Shown here: positions 995-32,100 of the stretch, piece after piece
Layout: each line of letters begins with the position of its first letter
How positions within the stretch are numbered: the stretch's first letter is position 1
DNA from: Chrysochromulina tobinii
Taxonomy: Eukaryota
NCBI GenBank assembly: GCA_001275005.1
Contig: JWZX01002254.1
Location: 1 to 33,654 of the forward strand
Reading direction: 5' to 3'
DNA: 33,654 nucleotides
Position numbers and translations under genes: made by a program
Notes under the pieces: generated by a model
Seen by the model: the letters and a program-made list of their open reading frames with translations, nothing else
Database searches by the model: none
What the model was told of the DNA's origin: nothing

Positions 995-1005
995 CATTCA
1001 CCGAG

Positions 1006-2260: not shown

Positions 2261-4562
2261 TCAGTTGTCGCCCTCGTCCTCATCCCCGTCCTCGTCATGC
2301 CGCCTGAATGGGTTGTGCTCGCTCCAGTACTGCACCCCCATCTCGATGCCCGGCGCCGCAGCCGCCTGCACGCTCGTCAGAGCACGCTGCAGGAGAGACT
2401 GCGGCTTTGGCACCGCGACCGGCTTGACCCTTTGCAGCCGCTTGTGGGGATTGAGGACGGCAAAGACCTTCCCGATCTCGCCCGGCGAGACACAGTTGTC
2501 ACTGTTGCTATCGACGGCACTGAAGAGCGCCTCGAACTGAGAGCGCGCCATCAGAGGAGTAGAGAGCAGCCGCAGCATCCGCTCGCAGCAGCGTGTATCG
2601 AGTGGCAGGTGGTCGAAGCGCGAGTCGAGTTCCACAGGCACCTGATGGGGGAGGCCATCAGCGCTCGTGAGAGAAGCACTCAGAGGCGTTAGAGATGCAA
2701 TCTCATGGCGCGAGCTCAAGCTCCATCGGCACCTCAGCTTCGTCAATCTCATGGCGCGAGCTCAAGCTCCATCGGCACCTCAGCTTCGTCCGAGGGGCGA
2801 GCATCAGGCGCAATCAGGGATCATCAGGCGCAATCAGTGAGCATCGGCACCTCAGCTTCGTCAGAGCCGCGGAAACTGCGTCCGAAACTTGTGCCGCCGC
2901 GGAAGCTGCTGTTCTCGCCGCGGGCGAGGGCCGCAAATGAGAAGCTGCTGTCACCCCCCCTTTTGAAGCTGCTGCTGTCACCCCCCCTTTTGAAGCTGCT
3001 GCCTCCGCCCCCCACCTTGAAGCTGCTCCCATCCCCCGCGCGGAAGGAGGCGCCATGTTGGGCACTTGCGCCCAGGTTGAACGACGTGTCGCTCGGCTCC
3101 TCGTCGAAGTTGACGTCGCTGAAGCGCTCGGCATTGAACCGGAGCACCCGCCACGCCTTGTGGGCGGCCTCGGACCCAATGTGGCCCGGCTCGCGGCACA
3201 GGTACAAGGCACCCACGAGGACGTGGATGTGGCGGTGCGGGAAGTGGTGTTCCCTCAAGATGGCGACGGACTTCCCAATGTACTTTGCTTGCCACCCCGG
3301 GATGAGCGCTCGCAGGTGTGTAGGGAGGGTCACGAGGGGATCCACCTGATGAGGGATGCAATCAAGGAAGGTCATCAGTGAGGTCATCAGGATCCTCAAG
3401 GGGAGGGTCACGAGGGGATCCACCTGATGAGGGACGCAATCAAGGAAGGTCATCAGTGAGGTCATCAGGATCCTCAAGGGGATCCACCTGATGAGGGATG
3501 CAATCAAGGAAGGCTATTCGAGAGGAGACCAGCCATGGAATCGCTGATGACCTTCCTTGAGTGCATCTTTGATTGCATCCCTCATCGGGAGGCCATCCAT
3601 GTCAATCAATGGCAATCCATGGCAATCAGGGGCCATCAGCGCCCATCAGCGACACTCACGTCTTCGGCCCGCTTGATGATCGGAGCAATCAGCGACGAGT
3701 GCACTTTCGCATCGATCGCCTCGCCCAGCATGATAGCGCTCTGAACCCCGTCGTCCAAGCTCATTCCACAGCTCTCGAGCCAGCTCAGCCCAATCCGATC
3801 GCCATCCAACTCCGCTCTGAGCGCCGTGCCGAGCACCGACGACGAGGGCGACTTCTGTTTCAGATAGCGCCGAAGAGGGTTCGCGAAGGATTCGTCACTC
3901 ATGGTCGACTTTCGGACGGTTTGAGCCCACTGACCCTTGAAGGCGAGTAGCCCGTTGATGCCCGTGCTCTTCGCGGCCGCACCGAGCGATTGGAATGCAC
4001 TCTCCTCGATGGCCTCAAGTGGTGACATGAAGTCTTTCGTGCTCATCTCGTCCAGCGCCTTTCGCGCCTCGCACATCACGGCGCAGAACTGAGCAAAGGT
4101 CAGGTCCGACCGGCCTTGCAATGCGGCCTCCTTGAACGGCGCGAGCACCTGATGAGGGTGGCAATCGGATGCGCTCAGTGAGCATCAGGCGCAATCAGAG
4201 AGCATCAGGCGCAATCAGCGAGCATAAGCGAGCATAAGCGGCGCAATCAGCGAGCATAAGCGGCGCAATCAGCGAGCATCGGCAGCGCCCTCACCGGCTC
4301 GCTAAACCCGTGGGGCATGTAAAGGGCCTCAGCCAGGAGGACCAGGAGGTCCGAGAAGGCGGCAGAGTCCACCCCGTGCGCACACATCCACCGGTCGGCA
4401 TTCGAAACCAACTCGGCGGTGGCGAGGTGCTCAGCACGGCGCCCGTGCTGGCTCGAATGGCTGCTCTTGAAAGTTTTGAAATCGAACGGGTTGGCGGGAA
4501 GACGCACGAGCTCGCCGCCACCCAGGGCTGTCCATGCTGCGCGCAGGGGTACGAGGGGATGG

Positions 4563-4605
<43 letters not shown>

Positions 4606-7600
4606 TGCCGCCGCCATCGTTCCTCTCGATGCTGTGACTGACTACTCCACCGACGTTGGCAGTTGCATTCACACTCCCGTCGGGGGCCTCGGGCGCATGG
4701 TGTGAATAGAGCGCCAGCAGAATGCTGAGGATGGCCTCATCATCGTATCCGAGGTCGCGCATCGTGAGCAGCATCGCGCCAGCTTCTGCTCGGCGTGGCA
4801 CGGGCACGATTTGACGAACCTCACGAGGCCGACCGTTCTTGACATTCGTCAGCTCCAGAAAGGCGGTTGAGCAGGCCTCGGCGCTGTTGCGCGCCTTATT
4901 CTTAGGCTTGAGCTTTCGGATCATCGTGACGAATTCGTCAAATTCTACCTTACCGGAGTGGTCGGCGTCCACCTGCCATAACGGGACGCACTCGCAATCA
5001 AGAGGTGCAATCAAGAGGTGCAATCAGCGGGGCAATCAAAAGGTGCCATCAGCGGTGCAATCAAGAGGTGCCATCAGCGGTGCACTCAGTGCACTCAGTG
5101 CAAACAGCAGTGCACTCAGTGCACCTCCTCGAAGAGCCTCTCGACGCGAGATAGCGGCAGATCGTCTCCGAGCAGCGGCAGCAACCGTGCGAACTCACTC
5201 AGCTTCATATCACGATCGAGCACGTCGTTTGTTTCCTTTTTGAGCTCCCCCTTGGCCTCACGCTTCTGCTTGCGCGTCTGTTGGGAGGCTTTCATCTGAC
5301 TGCCTGGCGACGGTCGACCGCCCGTACGGCGCAGCTCGTCCTCGTCCTCGTCGTCCGCACACACAGCGACGAGAACGACCCAAGCCTTGCGGAGCGCGTC
5401 ACGTGATCGGGACAGGTACACCGCATCGACGACTAGCGAGGCTTGCTCATCATCGAAGCCTGCCGTGAGGATGAGATGACCCACAATCAGACCAATCAGA
5501 GGCCATCAGAGGCAATCAGACGCAATCAGAGGATGCGATGGCCCACAATCAGAGGCCATCCAGAGGCCATCCAGAGGCCATGCAGAGGCCATTCAGACAC
5601 AATCAAGAGGAAATCAGAGGCCAATCAGAGACACTCAAGAGGCCCTCAGTGGTACTCACCTGCCGAGCGCAGGCGTGAGATGATCCGGCCCGCAGAAGCA
5701 AGCTGCTCGAGTGTAAGGCGATGGAGGAGCTGTCCACGGAGCACGATGAGCGATTGCAAGGCGGAGAGTGCTAAGCCAAAAGACGATTCTTCGACCGTGC
5801 GCTGCAACGGCAGGGCTCCGAGCACCTCACAGAACTCGCCGAAGTCGAGTTCATCTGATGAGGGAGGCGATCCGAGGCGCTCAGTGGCTGATGAGGGAGG
5901 CCATCAGAGATGATGAGGGAGGCGATCCAATCCGAGGCGCTCAGAGGCTGATGAGGGAGGCAATCAGAGATGATGAGGGAGGCAATCCAATCCGAGGCGC
6001 TCAGAGAGCATCCTACGTGAAATCAAAGAGCATCCGGCGTATTCAGAGAGTATCATCAGGCGTAATCACGGATCGTCAGATGATAGCACACCGTTGCCGT
6101 CCTGGTCGAAGACGGAGAAGAGCTGATCCGCCTCAGCTGCCGTCAGCCCCATCCCGCCAGTGATCAGACCGAGCACCGACTTCCAGTCGGACTTGCCGAG
6201 CACCCCCTTCTCACCCGCCGGCACAAAGACGCTCCATGCCGCGAGGAGCCGTTGGCGGGTCCCATGGAGGAGTCCAAGCACCACGTCACGCGCCTGGGCG
6301 GTCGTGTAGATGGTCGCACCCAATCAGAGGCCATTAGGGGCAATTAGGGGCAATTAGAGGCCATCCGAGGCCTTTCGAAGCCATCGGAGGTCATTAGAGG
6401 CAATTAGGGGCAATTAAAGGCAATTAGAGGCAATCAGAGGCCATTCGAAGCCATCGGAGGTCATTACCTGGGCGGTCTTGTAGCCAGCTGAAGCCATTGT
6501 GCGCGCGATGCCCGCCGCACGCTGCCGCGCGTCCCACTCAAGCCCGTACTCGCGTGCCACCTGTTCACCCAGAAGCCATCATGCGTCATCAGTCATCTTA
6601 GGTCATCAGAGGGTCATCAGAGGGTCATCAGAGGGTCATCAGAGGGTCATCAGAGGAAATGAACACACCTGTTCGACCCACGGAAACTCCGCGCCCGGGC
6701 GCAGCCGTGCATGCAACCTCGAATCGGCTGTGCTTTGCCGGAGGAGGCCCGGCCCCGAGGGCACAGCTGCGTGTCCTTTTCGGGTGCCGTTATAATGGTC
6801 CGCTGCAGCCATGGCTGTTGGTGAAACCAGGTGTGAGTGGCACTGAGTGGTGGTGGCAATCAGTCGCAATCAGTGGCGATCACGAGCACTCACCTGCCCG
6901 TTGGTCAAACCAGGTGTTGAGAAGGGTCTCCCAACGCCCCGCTTCACAAAGCCGTTCTTGCCTCTCCTCGACGAGCAGAGCTGAGACCGCGTCTGCGTGC
7001 AACGTGCGGGAAAGCATCTGCAGCGTGCGTAGATGACTGGCCTCGCCCGTCCCATCGGGCGCCGTCTCGAGCGCCACCTGCCTATTTTGTAGCGCCGTCT
7101 CGAGCGCCGTCTCGAGCGCCGTCTCGAGCTCCAAATCTCCCGCGGCGACGCCAACGGTCGAGCCGTTGGCAGCCGCCTCCGCGAGCGCGAGTGCCTCGGA
7201 GAGCCCACGAAGACGCTCGGGTCGCTCGACCCTGATGAAGCACGCAATCAGAGCCACTCAGGTGGGCCGTCACGAGGCACTCGGCGGCCATCACGAGGCA
7301 CTCGGCCGGCGTCCATCACGAGGCACTCTAGATGGCCGCATGTACAGCCATTCATAGCGCGCATGTGGCTCATCAATGGCAATCAAAGGCAATCAAAGGC
7401 AATCGAAGGCAATCAAAGGCAATCAAAGGCAATCAATGGCAATCCATGGCAATACGTACAGCCAAACGTAGCGCGCATGCGTCTCATCCTGCTCAGGGTT
7501 GAGCGACGTGCCCGGAAGCATGACGGGTGGGGCCAGCACCGCCGCGTCCGCACGCGCCCGTTGCTCTATCCCGAAGAGCATCCTTCGCGCCTCCCGTAAC

Positions 7601-8487
7601 CTCTCCCCGGCCGCCCTGGAATTCGCAGCAGCACCCTTCGCGCTATCGAACAAGGGTCGCCTCTCGACGACTGCCTGCCGAACGCCGGTCGCAATCTCGT
7701 GCAGGTCGAGCTTCCCGTCGCCATCTGCGTCCAGAGCTTCCCACAGCGACGACACGTCCCTTTTTGAGGACGAAGTTGACGAAGTTGACGAATTCATGGC
7801 CTGGCTGAGCGATTGGCGCACGCGGAGCAGCTCGCGCGAGTATCCAGTAAAGAGGCCGACTTGGTCGTCCGCCCCTGTCCTCGGGCCGGCCGCCATCAGC
7901 ACCTCGTTGTACAAGCTGTACGTGTCGTCGGACGAGACACCTGCTGCTGAGGCCGTGGAGCCGCCATCGCCGCCGCTCACTATGAGCAGTCGCATTTCGC
8001 GCAGCTTCTCAAGGTTGCCCATCGCCTGCCACCCCGCGTCGTCCTCGTTGAGCTCGACAAACGACGGCCGCCGACCCAGGCGCCCGGCGAGCGTACTCTC
8101 GGCGGTTCGCGCCGCGGCGATCGCCGCCCTCCAGCGCAACCGGAAGAAGTGTGGCAGTGTCGCGTCGTCGCCGCCATCCGTCTGCATGAGCTCCGTCAGG
8201 TAGCCCTCGAGTAACGAGACCTTGCTGCTGCGAGCTGGCGCCTTGCTGGAATGCGCCTGCTCAACCTGCGCTGCTGCCGCCGTACCGCCCGCGTCGAGTC
8301 GGATAAGTGCGGTGCTGCTCCCCATGCCACGTGCCTCGAACAGCGCTGACAGGGCTCGCGAGGTCTGCTCTTCGATGGATGCGCTGCCGTGATCGGAAAC
8401 GCGGAGTATGGCCGACGACTTCTTCGACGATTGTCGAGCGCGCTCGCGCTCGAGAGCACGGGCGCGTCGCTGCACGGTGGCCGACAT
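2261..8487 (-). CDS. Large multi-EF-hand calcium-binding protein, 11 predicted exons, ~1459 aa
   Basis: Predicted exons (minus strand): 8487-7460, 7231-6894, 6814-6669, 6560-6468, 6293-6092, 5854-5660, 5459-5125, 4972-4295, 4148-3660, 3345-2851, 2641-2261. All introns are GT-AG and phases are consistent (4380 nt). EF loops: DADGDGKLDLHE, DQDGNDELDFGE (formed only after splicing), DADHSGKVEFDE, DSNSDNCVSPGE. The ORF-track start at 8598 is TTG, so the ATG at 8487 is preferred. Confidence 0.82.
2698..2789 (-). repeat. Two tandem 46-bp intronic copies resembling the exon10/exon11 junction
   Basis: The unit is repeated at 2698-2743 and 2744-2789. The minus strand reads gacgaagctgag-gtgccgatggagcttgagctcgcgcc. 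Confidence 0.85.
3324..3513 (-). repeat. Three tandem acceptor cassettes (TTGATTGCRTCCCTCATCAG|GTGGATCCCC) in intron 9
   Basis: The AGs end at 3488, 3424 and 3346. They are followed by ~10 nt, ~22 nt and the full exon 10 start, respectively. Confidence 0.85.
7372..7453 (-). repeat. Intronic 10-bp minisatellite, (TTTGATTGCC)n-like on the sense strand
   Basis: About 8 units of ggcaatcaaa/ggcaatcaat on the plus strand, inside intron 7459-7232. Confidence 0.9.
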
Positions 8488-8760
8488 CGTCGCTCGTCGG
8501 TCGCGGCGCCCCAAAAATCGCGATCCGCTAAAGATGGGTTTTTTCACAGGCTGCAAGGATGTCGAAACAGTGAAGTGGGGAGGCCGCTCAGGTTCCAAAT
8601 GTCACTTCCACATCGTGCAGGTAGGTCGCGATTTGGGTTTCGTCGAAAACGCTCCGTCTGTTTCATCCAGCGACTGACGTCGGCCACTCGCTGCGCACCT
8701 TAGTCCGGGTCGGCGATCTTTTGTACACTGTTGTCCCCCCCAGGGCAGTGACTCTTCCAT

Positions 8761-11700
8761 ATGCTCGTCCCGGACGGCCCCGTGGTCTTCGTGCTCGGCG
8801 GCCCAGGCAGCGGGAAGGGCACGCAGTGCGCCAAGCTCGTTGAGCGGTACGGAGCGGCGCACTTCTCAGCGGGCGACCTGCTGCGCGCGGAGGCGAAGAA
8901 GGGTACCGAGCAGGGCAAGATGATCGACGAGATGATAAAGCAGGGGGCGCTCGTGCCTACGCAGATCACTCTCGACCTGCTCAAGGCGGCGATCAAGTCC
9001 CGCAAGGGGCCCTACCTGATCGACGGCTTCCCGCGCTCGCTTGACAATCTGCAAGCCTTTGACAACCAGGTGTACGGTGGGTGTGCCCTAACGCTGGTTT
9101 ACGACCTGTCGGAGGCGGCCATGGAAGAGCGCCTTTTGAAGCACGGCGAGACGTCGGGCCGAGCCGACGACAACGCCGCCACCATCAAGAAGCGTTTCAA
9201 GACCTTTTGGGATGAGTCGATGCCGGTGATCGACATCCTTCGAGCACGCAAGGGGGGCCTGATGGTGTCGACCATCGACGCGTCCCGGACGCCCCAAGAG
9301 GTGGCGATCGATACCTGGCGCGTGTTCGACAAGATCGCAAACGTGATCAACATGCTCGTCCCGGACGGCCCCGTGGTCTTCATGCTCGGCGCCCCTGGCA
9401 CGGGTAAGGGCGCGCAGTGCGCTAAGCTCGTCGAGCGATACGGCGCTGCACACATTAAAGTGAGTGACCTGCTGCGCGCGGAGGTGAAGAAGGGTACCGA
9501 GCAGGGCAAGATGATCGATGAGATCATGAAGGAACATGACGTAGTCCCCGCTCCAATCACTCTCGACCTGCTCAAGGCGGCGATCAAGACCCGCAAGGGG
9601 CCATACATTATCGACGGCTTCCCGCGCTCGCTTGACAATCTGCATGCCTTTGACGACCAGGTGTACGGGGGCCATCGAGGCTTTGGGTGTGCACTCGCGA
9701 TCTTTTACTTCATGGCGGATGCGGAGATTGCGGTAAAGCGGAAGCTGGAGAGGAATCAAACGCAAAAGAAAGGCATCCAAGATCTCGACGAGCACGCCGA
9801 AGAGCTCAGGAAGAAATTCCACAAGTTCAAGGGGCAGTGTATGCCGGTGATCGAGAAACTGAAAAATCGCGGCTTGCTCGCGACCGTCGACGGGCACCCC
9901 TCTTTCAATGCCGTGTTCACCGCCACCTGCAAGGCCTTCGATAAGGTGGCCGCCCCTCTCGTGACGTGGCGAAAGGCCCAGGTGACCGAATACCTCGCGA
10001 AGCATGCCATGAAGGAGCGGCTCGAGGCGGCCTTGCATGCGGCCGTTGGCTCCCAGGCGCCCGACCCGGCCAGTTTTGTCGCGGAGTGCATCGCACCCCC
10101 GGGCCCGCGCCGCCCACGAACCGCGTGCGGCACGTTCTTGCGTATTGTCACCGTGAACGACGTGTACAAGCTCGACAACTACCCCCGCGTCGCGAGCGCG
10201 GTCGCCGCCGCTAAGAAAGCGGCCGCGGCCCTCGACTGTGTAGTGATCTCAACCTTGCCAGGTGATGAGCGCTGACGACCTCCGATGACCCCCGATGGCC
10301 TCTGATGACCTCTGATGACCTCTGATGACTCGACTCTGTGTGGTGATCTCGACCTTGGCAGGTGACTTCTTGTCTCCGTGCCCTCTCACCGCTCTCGACG
10401 GCGGGCGGGCGATGACCGAGGGGCTCAACAAGGCTAAGATCGAATACGTCATGCTCGGCAACCACGAGCTTGACTATGGCTTCCAGTGGTCCGTGGATCG
10501 CATGCAAGCCTTCAAGGGCAAGGTGGGCCATGATTGCCTTGACTGCGATTGCTCTCGATCTGTCACTGAGGGGCTGCGCGTGCTCGATGCTCTGATGGCT
10601 CTGATGGCTCTGATGGCTCTGATGGCTCTGAGGGGCTGCGCGTGCTCGATGCTCGATGACCTTCTCTTGACGACTTACTCTCGTGCTCGATGCGCGATGC
10701 GGCAGTGCATCAACTCGAACATCACGACGAAGCCAATCGACACGTTCCCCAAGTACGCCGCCATTCCACGTGTGGGTTGATGACCTCTGAGGACCGCTGA
10801 TTGCGTCTCTCATGAGGGCTTGATGACCTCTGAGGACTACTGATTGCGTCTCTCATGATGGCTTGAGGACCTTTGAGGACCCTGATTACGTCTCTCCTCT
10901 CACAAGTGCGTCCATGATGACCTCTGGGGACCTCTGATGACCTCTGATTGCTTCCTCTCATAGGTACGACGTGATCCACGTGGGCGACCGAAGGGTGCTC
11001 ATGACCGCCTTCCTCTCGGCGGATACCTCCATCTACGCCCCGGCCAACACACCTACGGTCATCCCGCCCGCCGAGGCAGCGGTGGCGATTTGGAACGAAG
11101 CCAAGGAGGCCTTGGGGTACACCCCAGACGTGCACCTGCCCATGACGCACCAACTGGTGCCCGAAGACAAGGCCTTCTGCCTCGCGCTCGCCAAGCACAA
11201 GGAGCTGGGCCCACGCACGCCTATCGTACTGGGCGCGCACGAGCACGAGGTATACATTGACTCGTGTGGTGGTGCAAAGATCATCAAGACGGGCGCCGAT
11301 GCTGAAGAGATTGGATACGTTGATATTTGGTGGGGGACCGATGGCGTGATGCACTCAAAGGTAGAGCTGGTGCCCGGCTGTGAATTTGACGAGGAGCCTG
11401 AGGCGAAGAAGTTCTGCCTGGAGCAGGAGGACTTTGTTCGGCGGGTGATGTCCGCACCGCTGATGCCAATCCCGGCGTTCATGAGCTCCAAGACGGTGCG
11501 CCACTCGCCTTCTGGGGTGGAGATGATGACCTCTCTGATGACCACTGATTTCCTCCCTCATCAGGTGCGCCACTCGCCTTCTGGGGTGGCCACGCTACTC
11601 CTCACCCAAATGCTGCGTGGATTCCGAAAAGAGAAAGTGGAGCTGTGCGTGGTCCACGGCGGCAGTGTGCGCGCTGGCAAGGAGTATCAGGCCAATACGA

Positions 11701-13377: not shown

Positions 13378-13698
13378 GCAACGAGTCGCGTATGAGTGCT
13401 TGAGGCGTGGCAGGCGGTCTGTCCTTAAGGAGTTGTCGTCGTATTTATAATCTGTGGGTGTCATCTGATACCGTATCGACCGGATCACCCGACACCCGCG
13501 AGCCGCGGGGCACTGTTGCACGACAGCGGGACAGCGGTTTCCATGGCGCTCGAACCCGTGCTGTGCCTGTGCCAGCCTAAGTGCCAGCCGGCGTGCGCGG
13601 CGCACACGCGCGGACGAACGCCTTGACATGTCCAGACATCTGGCTCGACCCAAATATGGACACCTGGCTCGACCGCTTCATCGCGGTCTGCTCCGCCC

Positions 13699-13824
13699 CA
13701 CACCTTGGAGCGCCGTGGGAGGACCTGTGTTCACACCTTGGAGCGCTGGGAGGACCTGTGTTCACACCTTGGAGCGCTGGGAGGACCTGTGTTCACACCT
13801 TTGAGCGCTGGGAGGACCTGTGTT
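13699..13824. repeat. 31-bp minisatellite, 4 copies
   Basis: The unit cacaccttggagcgctgggaggacctgtgtt starts at 13699, 13732, 13763 and 13794, with no spacers. Confidence 0.92.
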
Positions 13825-13909
13825 CGTGCCCGCGCCCGTCACAGCGCCCGTCATGCGCCTGTCCCTTTGCGCCTACGCCTTGGATTTCGTCATCATCGCC
13901 GCGTCATGA

Positions 13910-16654
13910 TCATCGCTTCTTCTTGCGCTTCGTCTCCTTGCCTTTGGCGCCCTTGTTGATGAAGATCTTCATCGCCCTCTTCTTGAGCGCCTCGCGATCG
14001 AGCACCTGGTTCAGCGGGTCATCGGCAGCTCCCTCCTCGTCGCCCTCCTCGCCCTCGTCGCCTTCCTCCTCGTCGTCCTCGTCCCCGGGCACCTTGAACT
14101 CCTTCGCAGACGCGCCCGCCGCCATCAGCAGCGGAGCGAGCGCCTCCGCCGACTCCATCCCATCGCGGGCCACCAGTCCCCGCCCCTTGAGAGCGGCGAC
14201 CAAGCTCATACGGTACTCCTCTCCCGTCATCACTGGCGAGGGTGCCCCAGGCGCCGTACTGGGCGAGAAGGGGGACCTCTCATCAGGCGCCGTACTGGGC
14301 GCAGGCGGCTCCGTCACCACCGCCAGTCCGCCCTCAGCCTCTTCACCGTCGGCGTCGCCCGGGACGGCGCCTTCGGCGTCGGCCGGTCTGGCACTGCCCT
14401 CTGCCGCTTCGGAACTGCCAGCCGCCTCGTCGGCGGCATTGGACAGCGCCGCCGCCGCCACCGCCGCCGCCACCGCCGCCACCGCCGCCTCCTCCTCCTC
14501 CTCCGCCGCCTCCGCCTCCGCCACCGTCGCCGTCGCCGTCGCGTTCGCCGGCAGCGCCGTCCTGTGCGCCGGCAGCGCCGCCTTCCCGATGAGCTCGCGG
14601 AGCAGCCCGAGGCTCTCCTCGAGCGCCTCGACGGTCAAGTGGTCCTGGCTCCTCTCCGCCTCCAGCGCGCCCGGGACGGCGCCGGGTCGGGCGCCGTGTC
14701 GAGCGCCCTTGAGGGCCATCTGCGCCGTCGTGGGCGTCGAGCCCTCCTTCGCGGGCGTCGTCCCGGGCGTGCCGAAGGCCTGCTGCACCGCGCTCTCGGC
14801 GGAGCGCTTCGCCTTCACCTTGCCTGGAGAGGGCGAGGCCTCGGGCAGCATCAGGTCAGCACGGGAGTCGAGCACGGCGGCGGTTTCGCCACTCAAATCT
14901 CCCGCCTTGAGCAGCCCCGTCGGAGGCGGGACTGAGGGCGGATGCAGGATCATGAGCCCCAGCGCGAGATCGCTGGCGTGCTGCTGCCGACCGCCCTTAC
15001 GCCAGACGCCCGTCCCTTTGCCCTCAGTGCCCGAGACGGCGCCCGCGAGCGGCGCGGCGCCGCGGAGCCCCTTGGCAGTGTGGAGCATGCGGCTGAGCTG
15101 CGCTACAGCGGCGTGGGCGTGCTGCATGATGGCCGCCGTGCGCTTCGCTCGTGAACGAGCCGCGCGCAGCTGGCGCTGCTGCTCGAGGCGAGACTCCTCG
15201 CCCTGGCCCTGTGGGGATTGGGCGCGCGCTGTGGTGAGCGCTTGCATGCAGGGCAGGTAACATCAGTGGCAATCAACGTACCTGGCCCTGTGGGGATTGG
15301 GGGCGCCCTGTGGGGATCGGCGGCGAGCCGGCGCGGTTATCGGACGTGTAACGGAGCTGCAGCAGCTTCTTCTTGCGCTCGTGAAACCTGAGGACGGGCG
15401 CCCGATACGGCGCGCGATCAGAGCTCCTCGGCGGCAATCAGAGGTCCATCAGCGCACTCCTTGGAGAGCAATCAGAAGCTCATCAGAGGTCCATCAGAGG
15501 TCCATCAGAGGTCCATCAGCGGTCCTTCAGAGGTCCATCAGAGGTCCATCAGCGTACTCCTTGGAGAGCAGCTCGATCGACCTGGTCGCCTGTCGATGGA
15601 GGTTGGCTAGCAGAGCGAAGGTCTCCTCCTGCGCCTTGAACTTCTCAACGATCAGGTCAGCTTCCGAGGTGCCCATCACCTGGCGCGAAGAAGGGCGCAC
15701 ACTTCTTATTAGTCGTCATCCAATGGGTACTCAGAGGTCATCCGAGGCACTCAGAGGTCATCCGAGGCACTCAGAGATCATCAGAGGTCATCAGAGGTCA
15801 TCCGTGGCACTCAGAAAGCACTCTGCGCGCCCTCAGCCACCCTCAGCGCACCTCCGCAATCAAGAGCCATCACGAGTCATCACGCGCCATCACGCGCCCT
15901 CACGCGCCCTCACGCGCCCTCAGCGCACCTCCGCTATCGAGTCGAAGATGAGCTGGAGCTTGGCGATGCGATCTCGCTCATCGTCGAGCGAGCCGACGGA
16001 TGTGAGGTGCTCGTTGCGAGAGAGCGCGTCCAGCCGCTCCGCCTCCAGAGCACGCAGCTTCTCCGCCGTGCGTGTCGCGTGATCCGCCGCGGCCTGCTGC
16101 CGGGCCTGCAGCTTGTCGCGCTTGGCCTGTAGCTTCTCCGCCTGCGCGGCGAGCTCGAACGAGAGTGTCTTATCCTGACGGAAGAGCTCTGCCTCGGCCG
16201 CGTTGCGCACGTCCGTCGCGTCCTTGAGCATCAGGTACAGCTTCTTCGCGTCCGCCTGCTTCGCGCTCGATTGGAAGTCGATCTCGTTCAGGTCGCGCCG
16301 GTAGGTCTTCTCCTCGCTGCGGATGCGCTCGATCATCAGCCCGTAGGTGCTATGGTCGTGGTTGGCCACATCAATCTCCGCCTCGACGTCCGCGAGCTCC
16401 GCCTCGAGCTCCGCGACCTCCGCCGCGTCCTCGTTGGCGCCAGCCGACAAGTCTGCCGACTTTGTGAAGCCGCTGGTACGCTCGACCATCTGGTGGAGCT
16501 TTTGCCGCAGCGTGATGCACTCGGCAGTGATCTCATCGTGCCGCTTGCGCAGCTTCGTCGCCTCCGCGTTCAGCGCCCTCAACGCCACCTCCGGCTCGGG
16601 CTCCGGCTTCAACTCCGTGCTCATGGCGCAGAAACCCGAACCGCCAGCGTCCAT
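13910..16654 (-). CDS. Coiled-coil protein resembling outer dynein arm docking complex subunits (ODAD1/ODAD3-like), 4 exons
   Basis: Predicted exons 16654 (or 16624)-15929, 15679-15558, 15387-15282, 15202-13910, phases consistent. The spliced product reads ...KLQLIFDSIAEVMGTSEADLIVEKFKAQEETFALL...KKKLLQLRYT, which resembles the docking-complex family as I recall it. Low-complexity acidic/basic C-terminus. Confidence 0.72.
15203..15281 (-). mobile_element. Family A introner-like intron (79 nt) with a perfect 20-bp duplication supplying the acceptor AG
   Basis: Sense sequence gtacgttgattgccactgatgttacctgccctgcatgcaagcgctcaccacagcgcgcg + cccaatccccacagggccag. The last 20 nt are identical to the upstream exon end (15282-15301). 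The core matches introns 31025-31098 and 32151-32229. Confidence 0.65.
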
Positions 16655-16788: not shown

Positions 16789-18255
16789 ATGAGCGCTGCG
16801 TTGCGTGCGTGCCAGAGAGTCGCGATGATCGATGCCACCGCGCCGGATGGCACGCGTCTGCACCTCTCCGCGCATTCAGTGAGCGGTTACAAGGGCGTGT
16901 TCGAGTCTGCGGGACGCTACCAGGCTCAAGTGCGCGTCGGTGGCAAACAAAAATACATTGGCATCTTTCCGACGAAGATGGAGGCCGCGATCGCCGTCGC
17001 GCGCGCCATAGGCGAGCCATCGGATGATCCCGATGCCGATCTTGCGACGGCGACGGACGTTCGCGACGGAGGCCATGGCGCGGCCACGGAGGACGCAGAC
17101 ATGGCCGAGGCCGAGGCAGACATGGCCGAGGCAGGGGACGCTGGAAGTGGGCCCCAGGTGGAGGTCACATCGACCAAGGTGGAGGTCACATCGACCAAGG
17201 TAGACGACGACGACGACGACCAGGGCGGCTCGTCCATCGGTCCGTACTCGGCCGAAGTGGTCGGGCAGATGCGCGGGCCGGAGCTACGCCGGGCGGTGCG
17301 CGGCGCCTTGACCGAGTCGGGCAAGACGCAGACTGCCTTCGCCATCGCGCTTGGTGTGAACCCCGCCTACCTGTCCCAGTGGCTGAACCAGAACTGGTAC
17401 GGGCACACGCATGGCAGGCCCAAGGTGGAGAGATTCATCGAGGGGAGGGTGCGCGCGTACCTTCGCGGCGGGGCCCTCGAGCCCGTGCATGCATGCATGG
17501 GGCCGCCGGCACCTGGCGGCGCCACCAGCAGTGCGCCCACCCAGCCCATGCATGCATGCAAACATGCACAAGGCGGCGCCACCAGCAGTGCGCCCGCCCA
17601 ACCCATGGAACGGCGGCGCCAGCCTAGGGCGACGTCGACGGCAGCGACGGGTGACGCGGCATTGCGCCAACGACTCTTTTCGAATCTGGTAGACGAGGTG
17701 CAAGGCGGGAGCTCGTCGACTGATGACCTCTGATGATCCTTGATGACACTTGATGACACTTGATTGCATCCCTCATCGGGTGCGAGGCGGGAGCTCGTCG
17801 ACTGATGACCTCTGATGATCCATGATTGCATCCCTCATCAGGTGCAAGGCAGGAGCTCGACAAGCACGAATGGTGGTGCGAGCGGCGGTGCGAGCGGCAG
17901 GGACGGCGGAGGAGGAGGAGGCCGCCATCATCGGGCCCTGAGCGCCGTCCTGAGCGTCGAACGGCCCGTCGCGTCGCCAGAGTCGATCGCGGCAGCGGAG
18001 CGAGCGAAACGGGACGCGCTCATGGAGGGCTTAGCCTTCGAACCAGACCGCAAGGGCCCCACTGGGTTGCTCGGGGTGCGGGCACGCGGTGCGGGCGACG
18101 CGCTGCGGTATACGGCCACGATCACCTGGATCACTGGACGGCTGAAGCGCAAGGCTCGTGTGCTGGGCACCTCCTTCCTGGCGGCCGAGGAGGCGGCGCT
18201 CTCCATCGCTCGTGCGCGGAAGGCCCTCAAGACGGGACAAATGCTGCCCTTTTGA
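16789..18255 (+). CDS. AP2-domain DNA-binding protein with a central Cro/C1-type HTH and a second AP2-like domain, 2 exons, ~440 aa
   Basis: Predicted exons 16789-17697 and 17842-18255. AP2: SGYKGVFESAGRYQAQVRVGGKQKYIGIFPTKMEAAIAVAR. HTH: TQTAFAIALGVNPAYLSQWLN. Second AP2-like domain: TGLLGVR...RYTATI...LGTSFLAAEEAALSIAR. Start codon uncertain (16657, 16789 or 16825). Confidence 0.82.
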
Positions 18256-21744: not shown

Positions 21745-21800
<56 letters not shown>

Positions 21801-22862: not shown

Positions 22863-23164
22863 CGCCCTTCTGGCTCGCGCTCCTGGGCCTGCTCGCGGGA
22901 GTGGACTGGTCGGGTGAGCCTCTCCTTCGCTGCGCTGAAAAAAAGAGTGTCGCACAAGCGGTTTCGCGTTTTTGGATGCGACGCGATGTGGCCTACCAAA
23001 ATTAGATGCCGAAGAATGTAAGGTGTCTCGCCGCCTCCTTTTCGCGCACACGCAGACTTGTAACTGCATTTGGCTCGTACTCGCACTCGATCGATCGATT
23101 CATTCCACCGCAGGAAACCTCCGTGGGAAAATCATGAGTACGAAGCGTGCGAGCGCAGCCCGCA

Positions 23165-25446: not shown

Positions 25447-25507
25447 AGAGAATAATGACCCCCCCCCGGGGGGGCAAAGAGAATAATGATCCCCCCCCGG
25501 GGCAAAG
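25447..25507. repeat. Two direct copies of AGAGAATAATGA-Cn-Gn-CAAAG containing self-complementary C/G runs
   Basis: agagaataatgacccccccccgggggggcaa is followed by agagaataatgatccccccccggggcaaag. Confidence 0.8.
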
Positions 25508-25622
25508 TCCACAGAAGGGACAGGATGATGATGACGGGAGTCACTGATGTCTCATCATGTCGACCCCTTGCCATACCTCAAGTCGACGGGGATCTGCGCC
25601 GTGCTGGGGCACCGTGGGGTGC

Positions 25623-26408
25623 TCACATCTCGTCCTCCTCGTCGCCCCACACGCAATAGAGCGCCGGCTTGGGCAGGCCACGCTCATGCGCCGAGACGAG
25701 GTCGATGCGGCGCAGCCACTCCAAGTGACGCTTCCTGCAGTGCTTCCTCACGGCGTCGGTCGACGCGTAGAGCTTTTTGCAGCCGGGGAACCGGCAGCGG
25801 AAGCGGCTCGTCCCGGGAGGCGGTGCGCCTGCGCGTTGGGACAGGCGCGCGCGCGCTCGGTCAGGCGAGGGAATCGCCAAAGGGACATGTATGCGAACTT
25901 GGGGGATCAGTGGCCGACTCCCAGTAGGAATGGCGCGGCTGGGTGAGGGCGGCCGCGCACCGTCCTTGGGATTTCGCTGCCGCTTGGGCGAGCTTTGTCC
26001 GGGCGTATCGTAGTCGAGCGGCCGGAAGGTCTTTGGCGACCCGTCGCTCGGCGAGGAGTACCCTACACCGCTCAGATGTGGCCATCGCTTCGCATCGTGG
26101 TCGCCCCAGCGTCCCATCCCCCCAAGGTCGGCGCCCGTCGGCGCCGCATCGTCCTCCTCGCGAGAGTCTTCGTCAGGCGATGAGACCTCCACGCACGCGG
26201 TGTGCAGACCCAGCAGCGCGGCGACCGCATTCTGCTCGTACGCAGACTCCACGGCAGACTGAGGGCTGGAGTCCTCGTGCCTGACGTCCATCGCCGCGCC
26301 AGCAGCCGGTTCCGAGAACGAGCTAGCTGGCGACGGCAGGCCGGCGCCAACGAGCTCGAGATCCGGGGCTTTGGCTGCCGACAGATCGATGGTCGTCACC
26401 ATCGACAT
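25623..26408 (-). CDS. Single C2H2 zinc-finger protein
   Basis: C-terminal FRCRFPGCKKLYASTDAVRKHCRKRH (C-x4-C-x12-H-x4-H) with a disordered N-terminus. The ORF-track start at 26438 is GTG, so ATG 26408 or 26402 is preferred. Confidence 0.82.
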   Translation of the reverse strand: MSMVTTIDLSAAKAPDLELVGAGLPSPASSFSEPAAGAAMDVRHEDSSPQSAVESAYEQNAVAALLGLHTACVEVSSPDEDSREEDDAAPTGADLGGMGRWGDHDAKRWPHLSGVGYSSPSDGSPKTFRPLDYDTPGQSSPKRQRNPKDGARPPSPSRAIPTGSRPLIPQVRIHVPLAIPSPDRARARLSQRAGAPPPGTSRFRCRFPGCKKLYASTDAVRKHCRKRHLEWLRRIDLVSAHERGLPKPALYCVWGDEEDEM

Positions 26409-26805
26409 GAACTGGAAGGACTGATCTTGCCGCCTCACGTGGATCCGGCCGATAAGTTTTATCAGAGGGGCGTTTCTTTCGCGCGTTCGATACGGGAATC
26501 GGAAGCGCCGTCGGCAAAAAACTTTTGGGTCGTGCCGCGGAACACGACAGTCGAGAGTCTGTCGAAGCCAACCGCCGCATCGACGCTCCGCATCGCGCTA
26601 GGCGCGGCGCCGCAGCAGCACGGCTGCCGCTACATGCATTGGCCACATGAGACATGTACCAGCCTCCAGCGTGCCTCCCGGTCTGCGAAACTGCGAGACA
26701 TCACCCTTGCGCTTTGAACCCCAGCGGGTGTGTACTTACTTGTACGGAGTCGGTCGAGAGTCTGTATTCACACCGAATTTTGTTGAGTTGCCGAACATCT
26801 CCTTG

Positions 26806-27264
26806 ATGCGGCGTACCCCCTCGGTCCTGATACCAATTTGCCGCCACCGCGGTTTACATGCACGAGTCAGCGGTAGCAGCTCCTGCATCTTTGAGCACCT
26901 TGGGTTGCCGGCCGACACGCCGCGCAGCGAGGTGCGACGGCGATACCTGGAGGCGGCGCTGCGCACGCACCCAGACCACTGCTTGGATGCGGACGCAGCC
27001 ACACGCATGGCGGTGCTGCAGACCGCGTGGGAGAGCTATCGCCGTTCTGACGCTCGTCGAAGGCGCACCACAAGCCAAACGGGCGGCGCGCCGGCTGAGG
27101 GCTTCGCCACCTTTGGCGTTGGCTGCTCATTTGCAGACTCAGAGCAGGAGAGTGCGGAGCGTGCGGAAATCATAACAATGGCTTCGCGAGGCATGATGAA
27201 TCCACGACCACTGAGTGAATCCAAATGTGTGACCGCAGATACGGCTGCCGCGAGGCACGTTTGA
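26806..27264 (+). CDS. Small J-domain (DnaJ/Hsp40 type III) protein with a possible mitochondrial presequence
   Basis: FEHLGLPADTPRSEVRRRYLEAALRTHPD...AATRMAVLQTAWE contains the HPD motif. The N-terminus is Arg-rich and acid-free. Confidence 0.8.
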   Translation: MRRTPSVLIPICRHRGLHARVSGSSSCIFEHLGLPADTPRSEVRRRYLEAALRTHPDHCLDADAATRMAVLQTAWESYRRSDARRRRTTSQTGGAPAEGFATFGVGCSFADSEQESAERAEIITMASRGMMNPRPLSESKCVTADTAAARHV

Positions 27265-27626
27265 GAAAGCGCACGGGCGACGGGAAGTCCGCGGCAGCGG
27301 CTCGGTCGCGCCGCGCGCGCGCAGCTGCGTTTCGCGTTCTCGTGTTCGAGGTTCTGGCTCCGGTCTCATCACCCGCATAGGGTGGGTGAGAGGGTGGGTG
27401 GGTTTGCCGCCGAAGGCCACGAAATGGTATGGTAATTTTTCTTGAAGCCTTTAACCACAATCGAAATCTCGGGCATCGGCTGCAAGCCGGCCCGGCCGGT
27501 ACCGCGGTCCAGCGGCTAGCGACGCCGACGGCAAACCAACTCTGCGAGCCGCCGCGGGGACCACGCCGCGCCTCTGAGAGAGTCTTCTCGCCTGAACCTG
27601 TGACTGTGAGTCTCCGCGATAGTCGC

Positions 27627-27789
27627 GCGAGCACGCGGATCGGCGATGTGCAGTACCTGTGGGGAAATGGCGCCGTGGTGAGCACATGCATGCTGAGCGA
27701 GCACGCGGATCGGCGATGTGCAGTACCTGTGGGGAGAGGGCGCCGTGGTGAGCACATGCATGCTGAGCGAGCACGCGGATCGGCGATGT
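27627..27789 (-). repeat. 70-bp tandem repeat (2.3 copies) containing the family A intron core and an acceptor-like end
   Basis: Units start at 27627, 27697 and 27767. The minus strand reads gcatgcatgtgctcaccacggcgcc...tccccacag|gtactgcacatcgccgatccgcgtgctcgc. Confidence 0.85.
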
Positions 27790-28246
27790 CATCTTGACAG
27801 CGACGCCACCGGCTCCTCCGCGAGGATTTTGCCGCTTGATTTGTATTGGCATTAGAGGCATCCATGGTGACGGATCATGATGACGAAGCTCATTCGTGGC
27901 ATTAGTAGCATCCATGGTGCCGGCGGCAGCGGCGGCGGGGGTGACGGTGGAGGCGGTGACCAGGGCGGTGGCAGTGACGGCTCAGGACCGAGCGGAGCCA
28001 GTGGTGCAGCGTGGAGGCGGTGGTGGAGGCGGTGGTGCAGCGTGGAGGCGGTGCGGGTGGAATCCGGACGGGTCGAGGCAACATGGGCGTAGGCGGTGGT
28101 GGCGAGTGCGACGAAGCGCCTCGAGATCTCACGTCGATGTTAGTGTATGTGTATTCTGTGTATGTGGCCGGGGGCGCGCGGCCTCGCTCGCGTGCGTGCG
28201 CCAATGTGCGTTTGCACTCCAGTACCAGGCGCCAATGCCAACTAGA

Positions 28247-28918
28247 TCAACTCGGACTGAGGCCACAGTAGTGGTGCTGGCCATCGATGCTGATGAGGAC
28301 GCCATTCAGACGAAGTGCGGCGCCCAGCTCTTCCTGTGGTAGAGCCCGGTCCTTGGCGAGTCGGTCTATGAGGGCGGAGTAGGCAGGGCCTTGGGACTCC
28401 AAGCCCTCGTCGCCCTGCAGCTCCTCGTGCAGCTCAGCCAGAACCACTTGTCCTATAGCGCCACGCCACCAGCAGCGCTTGTGGCAGCCGCCAAACTCAA
28501 AGCAGGAGTTCCCGCCAGTCTCTAGGCGTTTGCACTCCCAGTACTCTGTGATCCAACGATGCAGCAACTCGGCTGCTGCATCACGAGAAGCAAACGGTCC
28601 GGCGTCCAATGGGTGCGCACGGGCACCGCACGCTGCTGCAAGACGAATGATGACATCCTCGGGCGCCCTGATGAGCGTGGCAGTCGGTGTGCTCGCTACT
28701 ATTTCAACCTCCCGTGCTGCTTTGAGAGATGAGAGAAACGCTTCTGGAAGCGCTGCCGTCTCAAAAGCAGCGTCAGCCCTCTTGGCAGAGCCTGCGGCAG
28801 ATGTCGGCGCATACTGTGATCCATACGGGAGGAACTTCGACCTATAGCCGTGAGCGAGCATAAGAAACTGGCAGAAGAGTGTGCCGCTGAGCCTCGAACG
28901 GCGTAATATCGACGCCAT
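28247..28918 (-). CDS. Hypothetical protein, 223 aa
   Basis: ATG-initiated ORF with protein-like composition, divergent from the next gene. No recognisable domain. Confidence 0.45.
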   Translation of the reverse strand: MASILRRSRLSGTLFCQFLMLAHGYRSKFLPYGSQYAPTSAAGSAKRADAAFETAALPEAFLSSLKAAREVEIVASTPTATLIRAPEDVIIRLAAACGARAHPLDAGPFASRDAAAELLHRWITEYWECKRLETGGNSCFEFGGCHKRCWWRGAIGQVVLAELHEELQGDEGLESQGPAYSALIDRLAKDRALPQEELGAALRLNGVLISIDGQHHYCGLSPS

Positions 28919-29174
28919 TCAGCTCTAGGCGAAACCCAGGGCGGACGGAAGATAGCGGAAAACACACCACGAGATGCGTTTTTTGCCTCCGGGATACGGT
29001 GTGGAAACAGACCTCCTCCCAGTGCATAAATGAAAGATTCGGGCTCATTCGTCAATTCGAAAAACAAGTCATGAAACTTATTGGCTCGATTTGGACTCAC
29101 CTGTGTGGAAGCGTCCAGACTATCGCGGTGTCGCCCCGTGCTACAGGCTGGGCGCTTGGCCACGGACTGGCGAG

Positions 29175-32100
29175 ATGTTCAAAGAATTCGACAAGGACGG
29201 CGACGGGAATGTCACCGTTGGCGAGGTTTTTCAGGGCGTATTTACCAAGATATCTGACCTTTTTACCAAGGAGACGAGGGAAGAGTACAAGAAGCGCATA
29301 TTTCAGCGAGCGGCGAGTGCGCTCCGGCACTCGCAGGAGGTCAGGGCGTGGAGCACGTGGGTCGACTCTATGCGCCAGCGGGCTGAAAACATGCGCGTGA
29401 TACGGAAGTGCGTGCTCGGCTTCATGTTTGCCAAGCAGCGAGCGTGCATTGAGTGCTGGCACGACGAGGCGATGGCCCGTGGCGAGGCGAAGTTGCGCGC
29501 TCAGAAAGCCTTGGCGCGGTTTAAGCATAACAACGAGAGCCGCGCCATCAATCACTGGGTCTTCATCTACAGGGAGGACAAGGCCGCGCGCCAGCGGCTC
29601 AAGAGCCTGATGTCACGCGTCTCCCCCGAAGGGCAGGCGAAGTTGAAGGTGCTTGATATCTTGCGTGCGATGCACGCCAAAGCGCTGCTGTTCCGCAAGG
29701 CTGCGATGGCGCTCTTGAACAGCCAGCTGTTCCGAGCGTACAATGCGTGGCACGAGCTGGCGGAGGACAACAAGCGAACCGCGGAGAAGATTCGGCGGGT
29801 ACTCGTGCGCCTCGACCCGGTGTGCATGCTGATGGCCTCCTGATTACTCGTGCGCCTCGACCCGGTGTGCATGCTGATGACCTCCTGATGACCTCTGATG
29901 ACCTTTGATGACCTCTGATGACTCGTGCGCCTCGACCCGGTGTGCATGCTGATGACCTCCTGATGACCTCTGATGACCTTTGATGACCTCTGAGTACTCG
30001 TGCGCCTCGACCCGGTGTGCATGCTGATGGCCTCCTGATGGCCTTTGTGTGACCTCCGAGTGACCTCCGATGGCCTCTGAGTGACCTCCGATGGCCTCTG
30101 ACGGCCTCTGGTGACCTCTGACGGCCTCTTGATGACCTCTGAGTGCCCTCTGATGGCCTTTGATGGCCTCTGATGGCCTCTGAGTGCCCTCTGAGTGACC
30201 CTTGATGACACCTGATGACCTCTGGTGGCCTCTGGTGGCCTCTGGTGGCCTCTGGTGGCCTCTGATGGCCTCTGATGGCCTCCCACACCAGGTGATGCGG
30301 AGCATGCTCAAGGTGATCGAGCGGCTCAGCATGCACGCGCAGCAAGTACACCAGTTGGAGTTCGCCGCGCGCGCCCTGCTGAACGCGGCGCCGAAGCGGG
30401 CGTTCCTCACATGGGCGGGTAGGCGAGAGCAAGTGATCGCACAGCGGCGGGCGGTGGTTTGGCTCGCCGTGCAACGCGGCCATCGCGTGGGCACCTTGCA
30501 AGAGATGTTTGAGGAGATCCGCGAGATTTCGGCCGTTGATGACTTGCTGCAGGTGAGTGCTAATGACCTCTGATGACCTCTGATGACCTCTGATGACCTC
30601 TGATGACCTCTGATGACCTCTGATGACCTCTGATGACCTCTGATGACCTCTGATGACCTCTGATGACTTCGGCCGTTGACGACTTGCTGCAGATGACAGA
30701 CGAGCTCGGGATGACGCCGCTCCTCTGGGCGTCCAAACGGGGATTCGCTGACATTGTCGAGGTGCGCGCGCCGAGGTGGGGCCTTGAGATATGGGGTTTG
30801 CAGGCGCTTTACCCTCTCCCACCCTCTCCCCACATCTCCCCACATCTCCCCACATCTCCCCACATCTCCCCACATCTCCCCACATCTCCCCTGTCCTCAG
30901 GTCCTCTTGACCTTCGCCGGCGACGTGCAGGCCGTCATCAGCGCTCGCGATGCTGAGGGCTCCACGCCGCTGCACCACGCCGCCCGCCGCCACCACAACG
31001 ACATCGTCGCCATGCTGATCGAAGGTACGTTGATTGCATGCGGATGGCCTGCCTTGCATGCAAGTGCTCACCACAGCGCGGCGCCCTGCTGATCGAAGCC
31101 GGCGTCAACGTGCACCAACCCAACGACGATCAGTCGACCGCGCTGCACTGGGCGGCTCGCAAGAACAATGCGCTTGCCATCCGCATGCTGATTGCAGCTG
31201 GCGCGGACCCGCATTGCAAGAACAAGTGGGGGGCGACGGCTCTCGAGAATGCGCAGTTTGGGGACAATCTGGAGGCGGTCTGTCTGCTCGCGAGGGACGA
31301 GGCCACTCGCAAGCAGGCCGAGGAGGAGCTCCAGCTCCAGCGCAAGCTTCGGTGCGATTGATTGAGATTGAGATTGAGATTGAGATTGAGATTGAGATTG
31401 AGATTAAGTAGCAGGCCGATGAAGAGCTCCAGCGCCAGCGCCAGCTTCGGTGCGTCAACTGAGGGCCACCGAGTGCCACGGATGGCCACTGATGGCCACT
31501 GATGACCGCGGGTGATCACATGTAATTGCCGCTGATGAGCACTGATGAGCGCTGATGAGCGCTGAAGAGCAACCCATTGCGCCCCTCATCAGGCCGACAA
31601 GCTCGGAGCTCTGATGACCTCTGATGACCTCTGACGACGCGATTGATTGCCTCCCTCATCAGACCGACAAGCTCGGAGCTCTGATGACCTCTGATGACCT
31701 CTGACGACGCGATTGATTGCCTCCCTCATCAGGCCGACAAGCTCGGAGCTGGCCGCCAGGCTGAGTGAGGCCGCGGGCTACGCCATCGAGCAGCGTGAGA
31801 AGAATCGGATGCGCATTCGAGGGCTGCACGACGCACGGGCCGCCATGGATGCCGCGGCCCAGGAGCAGGCGCGTTGATTGCTCACTGATGGCTCACTGAT
31901 TGCTATTGATTGCTATTGATTGCTCTTGATTGCGGCCCAGGAGCAGGCGCGTTGATTGCTCACTGATGGCTCACTGATTGCTATTGATTGCTATTGATTG
32001 CGGCCCAGGAGCAGGCGCGTTGATTGCTCACTGATGGCTCACTGATTGCTATTGATTGCTATTGATTGCGGCCCAGGAGCAGGCGCGTTGATTGCTCACT

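What the first reader, a model, noticed from the sequence alone, without database searches (positions are those of the whole stretch)
2642..31732. Family B: a fixed 20-nt 3' module, CTGATTGCNTCCCTCATCAG, ends at least ten introns
Seen as the terminal 20-mer in four genes. Minus strand: ctgatggcctcccccatcag (2642), ttgattgcatccctcatcag (3346), ccgattgccaccctcatcag (4149), cggatcgcctccctcatcag (5855), ctgattgcgtgcttcatcag (7232). Plus strand: ctgattgcttcctctcatag (10963), ctgatttcctccctcatcag (11564), atgattgcatccctcatcag (17841), ctgatggcctcccacaccag (30291), ttgattgcctccctcatcag (31732). The branch-like TGAT sits at a constant distance from the AG, and the module is two 10-bp units long. Inference: either a portable branch-point/acceptor cassette copied between loci, or an unusually extended lineage-specific 3' splice consensus.
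Basis: partly seen in the sequence, partly recalled or inferred. Interest (0 to 1): 0.75.

Follow-up and report, generated by a model that had tools for sequence, protein, structure and literature searches.

The report
Copied intron-end cassette seeding new introns
In a freshwater alga, the same 20-base intron ending closes 10 of the 25 introns modelled here and is not needed for splicing; it likely spreads by being copied between genes, because one intron carrying it appears to be missing from a very close relative.

Summary
The 20-nt module is real: 10 of 10 sites, far above chance. The window is a Chrysochromulina tobinii contig. It is not a general splice consensus: 15 of 25 modelled introns lack it, and 9 of those 15 are spliced in RNA contigs. 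It is the terminal form of a ~10-bp repeat filler found only in introns, always sense (32 of 32 arrays). Introns often carry a copy of their own flanking exon: 9 end in an upstream-exon copy (none with the module); 3 start with a downstream-exon copy (all with it). Intron 11496-11564 (25-nt duplication + filler + module) is absent from 11 of 11 sister-type ORFs at 97% identity, from the paralog and from distant relatives, so it is likely a recent gain. Intron 6294-6467 ends in the module in some alleles and in an exon copy in others. A second cassette behaves alike. Likely mechanism: templated capture of intron tails during break repair; a retro- or Introner-like route is not excluded. Relatives were seen as proteins only. 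The scan's notes hold junction duplications in animals, not this system.

The parts
11496..11564 (+). Intron B4 (69 nt, in frame): 25-nt copy of the downstream exon start (gives the GT donor), then 44 nt of filler ending in the module (11545-11564). Likely recent gain.
   Evidence: RNA skip in 3 of 3 RNA runs, 26 letters fit either side; anatomy; absent from 11 of 11 sister-type ORFs
17698..17841 (+). Intron D1: two tandem units of [18-nt downstream-exon copy + filler + module]; the first acceptor is mutated (17760-17779), the last is used
   Evidence: NCBI model P0108; no RNA joint shown
10753..10963 (+). Intron B3: degenerate downstream-exon copy at the 5' end, variant module with a one-base shift at the 3' end; shared with the 97% sister
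   Evidence: RNA joint; read-in peptide of P0001-type ORFs
10262..10361 (+). Intron B1: filler between two copies of the upstream exon end (26-nt anchored copy); no module
   Evidence: RNA joint
10523..10705 (+). Intron B2: filler, no module, no flank copy
   Evidence: RNA joint
6294..6467 (-). Intron A4: ends in a 16-nt upstream-exon copy here; ends in the module in alleles P0145-P0147 and P0152
   Evidence: inferred from read-in peptides
7232..7459 (-). Intron A1, module-ended, with an internal copy of the upstream exon end
   Evidence: gene model
5855..6091 (-). Intron A5, module-ended, with four further internal module copies
4149..4294 (-). Intron A8, module-ended
3346..3659 (-). Intron A9: three tandem [filler + module + exon start] copies and one inverted copy of the tail (3544-3592)
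2642..2850 (-). Intron A10, module-ended, with internal copies of the 5' junction
29820..30291 (+). Intron F1, variant module, with internal copies of the 5' junction; position shared with the 93% sister
   Evidence: RNA joint; P0063
31352..31732 (+). Intron F5: three tandem module + exon-start copies; the last acceptor is used
   Evidence: RNA piece lengths, 166 nt between aligned pieces
30553..30692 (+). Intron F2: pure 10-bp filler, ends in a 28-nt upstream-exon copy; no module
   Evidence: RNA joint
31025..31098 (+). Intron F4: second cassette (M2), then an upstream-exon copy
   Evidence: RNA joint; alignment
31869..32229 (+). Intron F6 (GC donor inferred): 68-bp copies of the 5' junction, M2, then a 7-nt upstream-exon copy
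   Evidence: RNA joint of 361 nt
15203..15281 (-). Intron C3 (predicted): M2 plus a long upstream-exon copy
15680..15928 (-). Intron C1: filler but no module; position likely old
   Evidence: RNA joint; read-in at the same site in P0189 and P0207
16141..16142 (-). Intron-free site in gene C where relatives P0187 (99%) and P0196 (95%) appear to carry an M2-ended intron
   Evidence: inferred from read-in peptides
6815..6893 (-). Intron A2, ends in a degenerate upstream-exon copy. A3 (6561-6668) and A6 (5460-5659) are of the same type.
25829..25960 (-). Intron E1: ordinary, no filler and no module (internal control)
   Evidence: RNA joint in 4 of 4 runs

Best explanation
The 20-mer ends 10 of 25 modelled introns and is likely a ready-made branch-point-plus-acceptor tail of a 10-bp repeat filler, probably copied from existing introns into other sites during error-prone break repair that also duplicates roughly 7-38 bp of the neighbouring exon. 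Shown: module, filler, exon duplications, splicing with and without the module. Inferred from proteins: B4 is a recent gain and A4 has two kinds of end. Inferred mechanism: a staggered break in a gene is filled in, duplicating flanking exon, and the free end captures filler by microhomology from another intron. If the duplicate starts with GT it supplies the donor and the captured tail supplies branch point and AG (B4, D1, probably B3). If the duplicate ends in AG it supplies the acceptor and filler alone suffices (B1, F2, A2-A4, A6, C3, F4, F6). Either product splices out without changing the protein, so it survives. The same template switching then makes tandem and inverted junction copies and swaps intron ends. 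The module's last 7 nt are the reverse complement of the filler unit's first 7, which would let ends anneal to filler on either strand (untested).
For: Complementary pattern: 9 of 25 introns end in an anchored copy of their own upstream exon (0.3% of 600 mismatched pairings) and none has the module; 3 of 25 start with a downstream-exon copy (1.5% null) and all have it. 15 of 25 hold a flank copy somewhere (0.5% null). B4 is a 25-nt duplicate plus a 44-nt tail, spliced in 3 of 3 RNA runs. It is absent from 11 of 11 sister-type ORFs at 96.7-97.4% identity, 8 of which start inside unspliced intron B3, on contigs up to 10.5 kb (16.5 kb for the other three). It is also absent from the paralog's 1374-aa ORF (20-kb contig) and from P0003 (12-kb contig). 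A4: 10 exon-copy, 4 module and 1 uninformative among 15 listed of 20 members, exon differing by 0-2 of 75 residues in the 11 compared. M2 ends an intron in P0187 and P0196 at a site empty in the window. Inverted tail copy in A9. Variable duplication lengths fit repair better than a transposase.
Against: No relative's DNA was seen; presence and absence rest on gene-caller ORFs. P0051 (B1 read-in, B2-B4 absent) shows that partly spliced sources exist. Only one clean M1 gain. All 32 filler arrays lie in introns and none in about 7.6 kb of intergenic and UTR sequence, which random break-repair capture does not predict. A precise 3' end at AG with a variable 5' end also fits reverse transcription of intron RNA. 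Exon-copy ends can arise in old introns by junction duplication plus deletion, as A4 may show. C1 has filler at a likely old position, so filler does not mark new introns. The source template of the B4 tail is not identified. Gene A has no RNA joint shown and no long homolog.
Confidence: 0.5

Rival explanations
1. The tail is a non-autonomous mobile element: either reverse-transcribed intron RNA inserted by a retroelement's target-primed reverse transcription (variable long target duplications, 5' truncation), or an Introner that brings the 3' splice site and takes the 5' site from its target duplication.
For: Exact 3' end at AG, variable 5' end and 18-25-nt duplications in B4 and D1. Strict sense and intron-only distribution. 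7-nt self-complementary ends in several tails. Two distinct cassettes. [quoted passage not shown]
Against: Introner target duplications are 3-9 bp, not 18-25. Copies share only about 20-45 nt, not whole introns. Nine introns have a duplication but no module. C. tobinii is in that survey's genome list and was not found in its other tables in the part of the supplement held, which is cut. No poly(A) tail. I recognised no transposase or reverse transcriptase among the 15 proteins scanned.
Confidence: 0.25
2. Introns are mostly old and are renewed in place: junction-spanning tandem duplications ('mirages') followed by microhomology deletions rebuild their ends, and gene conversion plus selection homogenise a good acceptor.
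For: Junction copies in A1, A9, A10, D1, F1, F5, F6. A4 dimorphism. Filler in C1, a likely old position. Mirages are described in amphioxus (PMC3087553 passages).
Against: It does not explain B4, whose site is empty in sister, paralog and distant relatives, nor the M2 intron at 16141/16142. All four B positions read through in the paralog and in P0003.
Confidence: 0.15
3. The module is an extended, lineage-specific 3' splice consensus read by an altered U2 snRNA or U2AF.
For: A branch-like A sits 17 nt from the 3' end in 6 of 10 module introns by a strict five-base pattern. RNA uses the last copy where several are in tandem (F5).
Against: 15 of 25 introns lack it and 9 of these splice in RNA contigs. 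A4 exists with either end. The B3 copy, shared with the sister and so older, has drifted. A second, unrelated tail does the same job.
Confidence: 0.07

Closest known systems
Intron gain by tandem genomic duplication (Rogers model) and during double-strand-break repair (Daphnia), as reviewed in PMC3443670 (passages read)
   Same: New intron bounded by a duplicated exon segment holding AG/GT, with inserted filler and no change to the protein.
   Different: Here the filler is a recurring, splice-ready 10-bp repeat with a shared acceptor tail, and the pattern covers about half of the introns in the window. The review counts 5 unambiguous break-repair gains.
Introners (PMC9860276, passages and supplement look-ups), including the marine Chrysochromulina TARA MAG family
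   Same: One splice site from the insert and one from the duplicated target; restricted to genes; presence/absence among relatives.
   Different: Duplications of 7-38 bp and variable, against 3-9 bp. No whole-intron similarity. The marine Chrysochromulina family carries its 5' site and has a 4-bp duplication; here the 3' site is carried.
'Mirage' minisatellites of amphioxus (PMC3087553, passages read)
   Same: Tandem copies of exon-intron junctions inside introns; splicing unaffected; allelic length variation.
   Different: Mirages are local. Here a tail is also shared between unrelated genes and appears at likely new intron positions.
10-11-bp tandem repeats in Emiliania huxleyi introns (Read et al. 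2013; recalled, paper not held)
   Same: Haptophyte introns filled with ~10-bp repeats.
   Different: I recall no link to acceptor cassettes or intron gain there; I could not check the text.

Membership tests
Introner / introner-like element | Many introns similar along their whole length | tested here: not met
   Similarity is limited to the last ~20-45 nt and the filler; lengths run 69-472 nt
Introner / introner-like element | Short fixed target-site duplication (3-9 bp) where one exists | tested here: not met
   Anchored copies span 6-38 nt and sit on either side
Introner / introner-like element | Terminal inverted repeats | tested here: inconclusive
   7-nt complementarity between filler unit and module end, but every unit offers it; 2 of 10 folds had z below -2
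Introner / introner-like element | Empty orthologous sites in close relatives | tested here: met
   B4 and the 16141/16142 site, at protein level only
Tandem-duplication / break-repair intron gain | Direct repeat of exon sequence at the intron boundary above background | tested here: met
   12 of 25 introns (9 upstream, 3 downstream) against 0.3% and 1.5% null
Tandem-duplication / break-repair intron gain | Gain shown by outgroups | tested here: inconclusive
   Supported for B4 and the four B positions from ORFs; no DNA of relatives; other genes largely untested
Tandem-duplication / break-repair intron gain | Dependence on a repair pathway | not testable with these tools
   Needs genetics, or many filled and empty site pairs
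Mirage minisatellite | Tandem units spanning an exon-intron junction, authentic site still used | tested here: met
   A9, D1, F1, F5, F6; RNA for F1, F5, F6
General 3' splice consensus | Present in most introns, including old ones | tested here: not met
   10 of 25; absent from 9 RNA-supported introns and from likely old C1
General 3' splice consensus | Matching changes in U2 snRNA or U2AF | not testable with these tools
   No genome held; no Rfam match in the window
Non-LTR retro-insertion | Variable long target duplication, fixed 3' end, 5' truncation, a partner reverse transcriptase | tested here: inconclusive
   The first three fit B4 and D1; no tail and no partner seen

The most novel reading that the evidence does not exclude
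Freshwater Chrysochromulina runs a transposase-free, self-reinforcing route to new introns: the 3' tails of existing introns, as DNA or as excised intron RNA, are captured at breaks in transcribed genes beside a short exon duplication, so each intron seeds more introns, and at least two tail families are spreading within living populations.
Probability: 0.35. Interest if true: 0.82.

Novelty: new variant of a known kind. Interest (0 to 1): 0.62.

Why it matters
How new spliceosomal introns arise outside Introner bursts is a long-standing open question, and unambiguous break-repair gains are few (5 in the table of PMC3443670). One 34-kb window shows a likely fresh gain with its footprint intact, a second polymorphic site and an intron with two allelic ends, in a cultured alga with many environmental assemblies. 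That makes the mechanism testable genome-wide. It would escape Introner screens that need whole-intron similarity. It also misleads annotation: KOO30275.1 keeps the 23-residue B4 intron that RNA removes.

Tried and rejected
No own genome is held. The metagenome scan returned L001, the same sequence as the window (99.995%), and two weak hits, L002 and L003, which were not examined further. Scans of genome and viral contigs with a sister protein found nothing. The search for long homologs of a gene A exon found none. Cluster look-ups matched 7 of 7, 7 of 10 and 2 of 10 queries. RNA gave no listed joint for gene A, D1 or C3; 46 and 8 joints were hidden, so this is no evidence of absence. A conserved RNA hairpin is not supported: 2 of 10 folds had z below -2. 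Local co-variation of the module end with nearby filler is rejected (p=0.21). A template-switch artefact for the B4 skip was considered because of the 26-nt repeat; it is unlikely given GT-AG ends, skipping at full gene depth and fully spliced P0055, but raw reads were not available. An assembly artefact is unlikely: L001 and many ORFs from other contigs carry the same read-ins. Rfam gave 0 matches. Nine paper searches showed no description of this module in their listings. Read 2013 and Huff 2016 were not held, and the Introner supplement is cut, so prior description cannot be excluded. F4's 3' end and the acceptors of A6 and A10 showed no module/exon-copy swap in the listed members.
Full report
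Observation. Matches to the majority pattern number 12, 18, 23 and 25 at up to 2, 3, 4 and 5 mismatches, against at most 1.6 on average in Markov simulations. Nine of the 25 are terminal acceptors, 13 are extra copies inside the same introns, and 3 are weak matches outside introns. The site at 10963 needs a one-base shift.

Identity and gene models. An exact look-up of the window's ORF at 11001 falls in a cluster with KOO30275.1 of Chrysochromulina tobinii, recorded on a contig of 33,654 bases. I modelled six intron-containing genes: A (EF-hand-like motifs by eye, no Pfam match in the four pieces scanned), B (adenylate kinase, 5'-nucleotidase, EF-hand), C, D, E and F (EF-hand, ankyrin). All six translate without internal stops with 25 introns. 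RNA contigs from mixed-culture metatranscriptomes show joints for 12 of the 25, and piece lengths imply a thirteenth. I laid 5 of 14 RNA holders; they are probably one campaign and not independent. Gene A's ten introns rest on modelling alone.

Not a general consensus. Ten of 25 introns end in the module. Nine module-free introns (B1, B2, C1, C2, E1, F2, F3, F4, F6) are spliced in RNA. C1 has read-ins at the same site in relatives at 59% and 37% identity, so its position is likely old, although four other relatives read through it. It holds filler but no module.

The filler. A four-base core of the module occurs 182 times sense and 20 times antisense in 4,751 intron bases, against 98 and 81 in the other 28,903 bases. 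Its spacing peaks at 10 (66 cases) and 11 (25). All 32 arrays of three or more units lie in introns in sense orientation; 19 of 25 introns have one. The module's first half is a filler unit, and its second half is close to a unit's reverse complement. Summed contig depth over filler is tens to hundreds of times that of exons, and loose ends run from the module into unrelated sequence, so many other loci likely carry it.

Exon duplications. Nine introns end in a copy of their own upstream exon end and three begin with a copy of the downstream exon start. Mismatched pairings reach that score in 0.3% and 1.5% of 600 cases. None of the nine has the module; all three of the others do. The module appears where the duplication cannot supply the acceptor. 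Many introns also hold tandem junction copies, and A9 holds an inverted tail.

Dynamics in relatives, inferred from proteins called on contigs. (1) B4 is a 25-nt duplicate plus a 44-nt tail. Six window-type ORFs read through it in frame, and allele P0052 implies a perfect module. Eleven of 11 listed sister-type ORFs spanning the site (96.7-97.4% identity; 15 of 30 cluster members were listed) lack it. Eight of them begin inside the unspliced tail of B3, on contigs up to 10.5 kb. The 72% paralog (1374 residues uninterrupted, 20-kb contig) and P0003 (12-kb contig) read through all four B positions. Three window-type ORFs without B4 (P0018, P0051, P0055) are probably from transcripts; P0051 warns that partly spliced sources occur. 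(2) A4 ends in an exon copy in 10 listed members and in the module in 4, with 1 uninformative, of 15 listed from 20. The module alleles give the same read-in peptide as the window's own module copies. Polarity is unknown. (3) A second tail, M2, occurs in C3, F4, F6 and twice at 27656-27772. P0187 (99%) and P0196 (95%) show M2-like read-ins at a site where the window, P0186 and distant relatives have no intron. F1 and B3 are shared with the sister.

Mechanism. I favour templated capture during break repair (0.5): fill-in of a staggered break duplicates exon, the end picks up an intron tail by microhomology, and products that happen to splice cleanly persist. Variable duplication length, inverted and tandem copies and end-swapping fit this. 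The intron-only distribution does not follow from it and may mean an RNA- or transcription-linked step; hence 0.25 for a retro- or Introner-like route. In-place renewal (0.15) explains exon-copy ends but not B4. A splice consensus gets 0.07.

Comparison with what is known. It works like an Introner that brings the 3' splice site, but it fails two membership tests: whole-intron similarity and a short fixed duplication (PMC9860276, passages and supplement look-ups; C. tobinii appears only in the genome list in the part held). It meets the direct-repeat signature of tandem-duplication and break-repair gain (PMC3443670, passages), and the junction copies match amphioxus mirages (PMC3087553, passages). 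Ten-base repeats in Emiliania introns are recalled from Read 2013, which was not held. Passages of the C. tobin genome paper (PMC4580454) mention only about one intron per gene. Passages of PMC11282704, PMC12480563 and PMC8469720 added nothing on this module. Nine searches showed no description in their listings; subscription papers are not covered.

Verdict. The feature is real and the cassette reading is partly right. It is a new variant of known intron-gain routes, interest 0.62, limited by one clean M1 gain and by having no DNA from relatives.

Noticed in passing
window 11496-11564; KOO30275.1 (P0057): The public protein model retains the 23-residue intron that RNA contigs splice out.
   Followed up: yes
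window 27656-27790 (-): Two tandem units of [downstream-sequence copy + M2 tail], the same architecture as D1; the host gene is unclear and no RNA joint was listed.
   Followed up: partly
window 30762-30900 (+): Intron F3 uses a different, pyrimidine-rich 10-bp repeat: a possible third filler family.
   Followed up: no
window 17760-17779 (+) and 3569-3588 (+): Two dead module copies in different genes are identical over 20 nt, including the same loss of the AG; one is inverted relative to its gene.
   Followed up: partly
window 29175-29843: The NCBI-sourced protein P0076 stops inside intron F1, whereas RNA joins this exon to the ankyrin exons, giving a 712-residue protein in my model.
   Followed up: partly
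window 8761-9080 and 9352-9671: Gene B has two adenylate kinase repeats (86% alike in DNA over 320 bases); its intron-free paralog reaches 1374 residues with more repeats.
   Followed up: no
window 31360-31405: A 6-bp microsatellite derived from filler-like sequence; read-in peptides vary in length among alleles.
   Followed up: no
window 15282-15346 (-): The modelled exon end holds a tandem repeat resembling the M2 tail; it may be an exonised or unrecognised intron.
   Followed up: no
window 922-1155 and 1009-1785 (-): A U-box/Sel1 gene whose 3' end is duplicated 73 bases at 96% identity.
   Followed up: no
window 13699-13825: Four copies of a 31-bp repeat just downstream of gene C, unrelated to the filler.
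   Followed up: no
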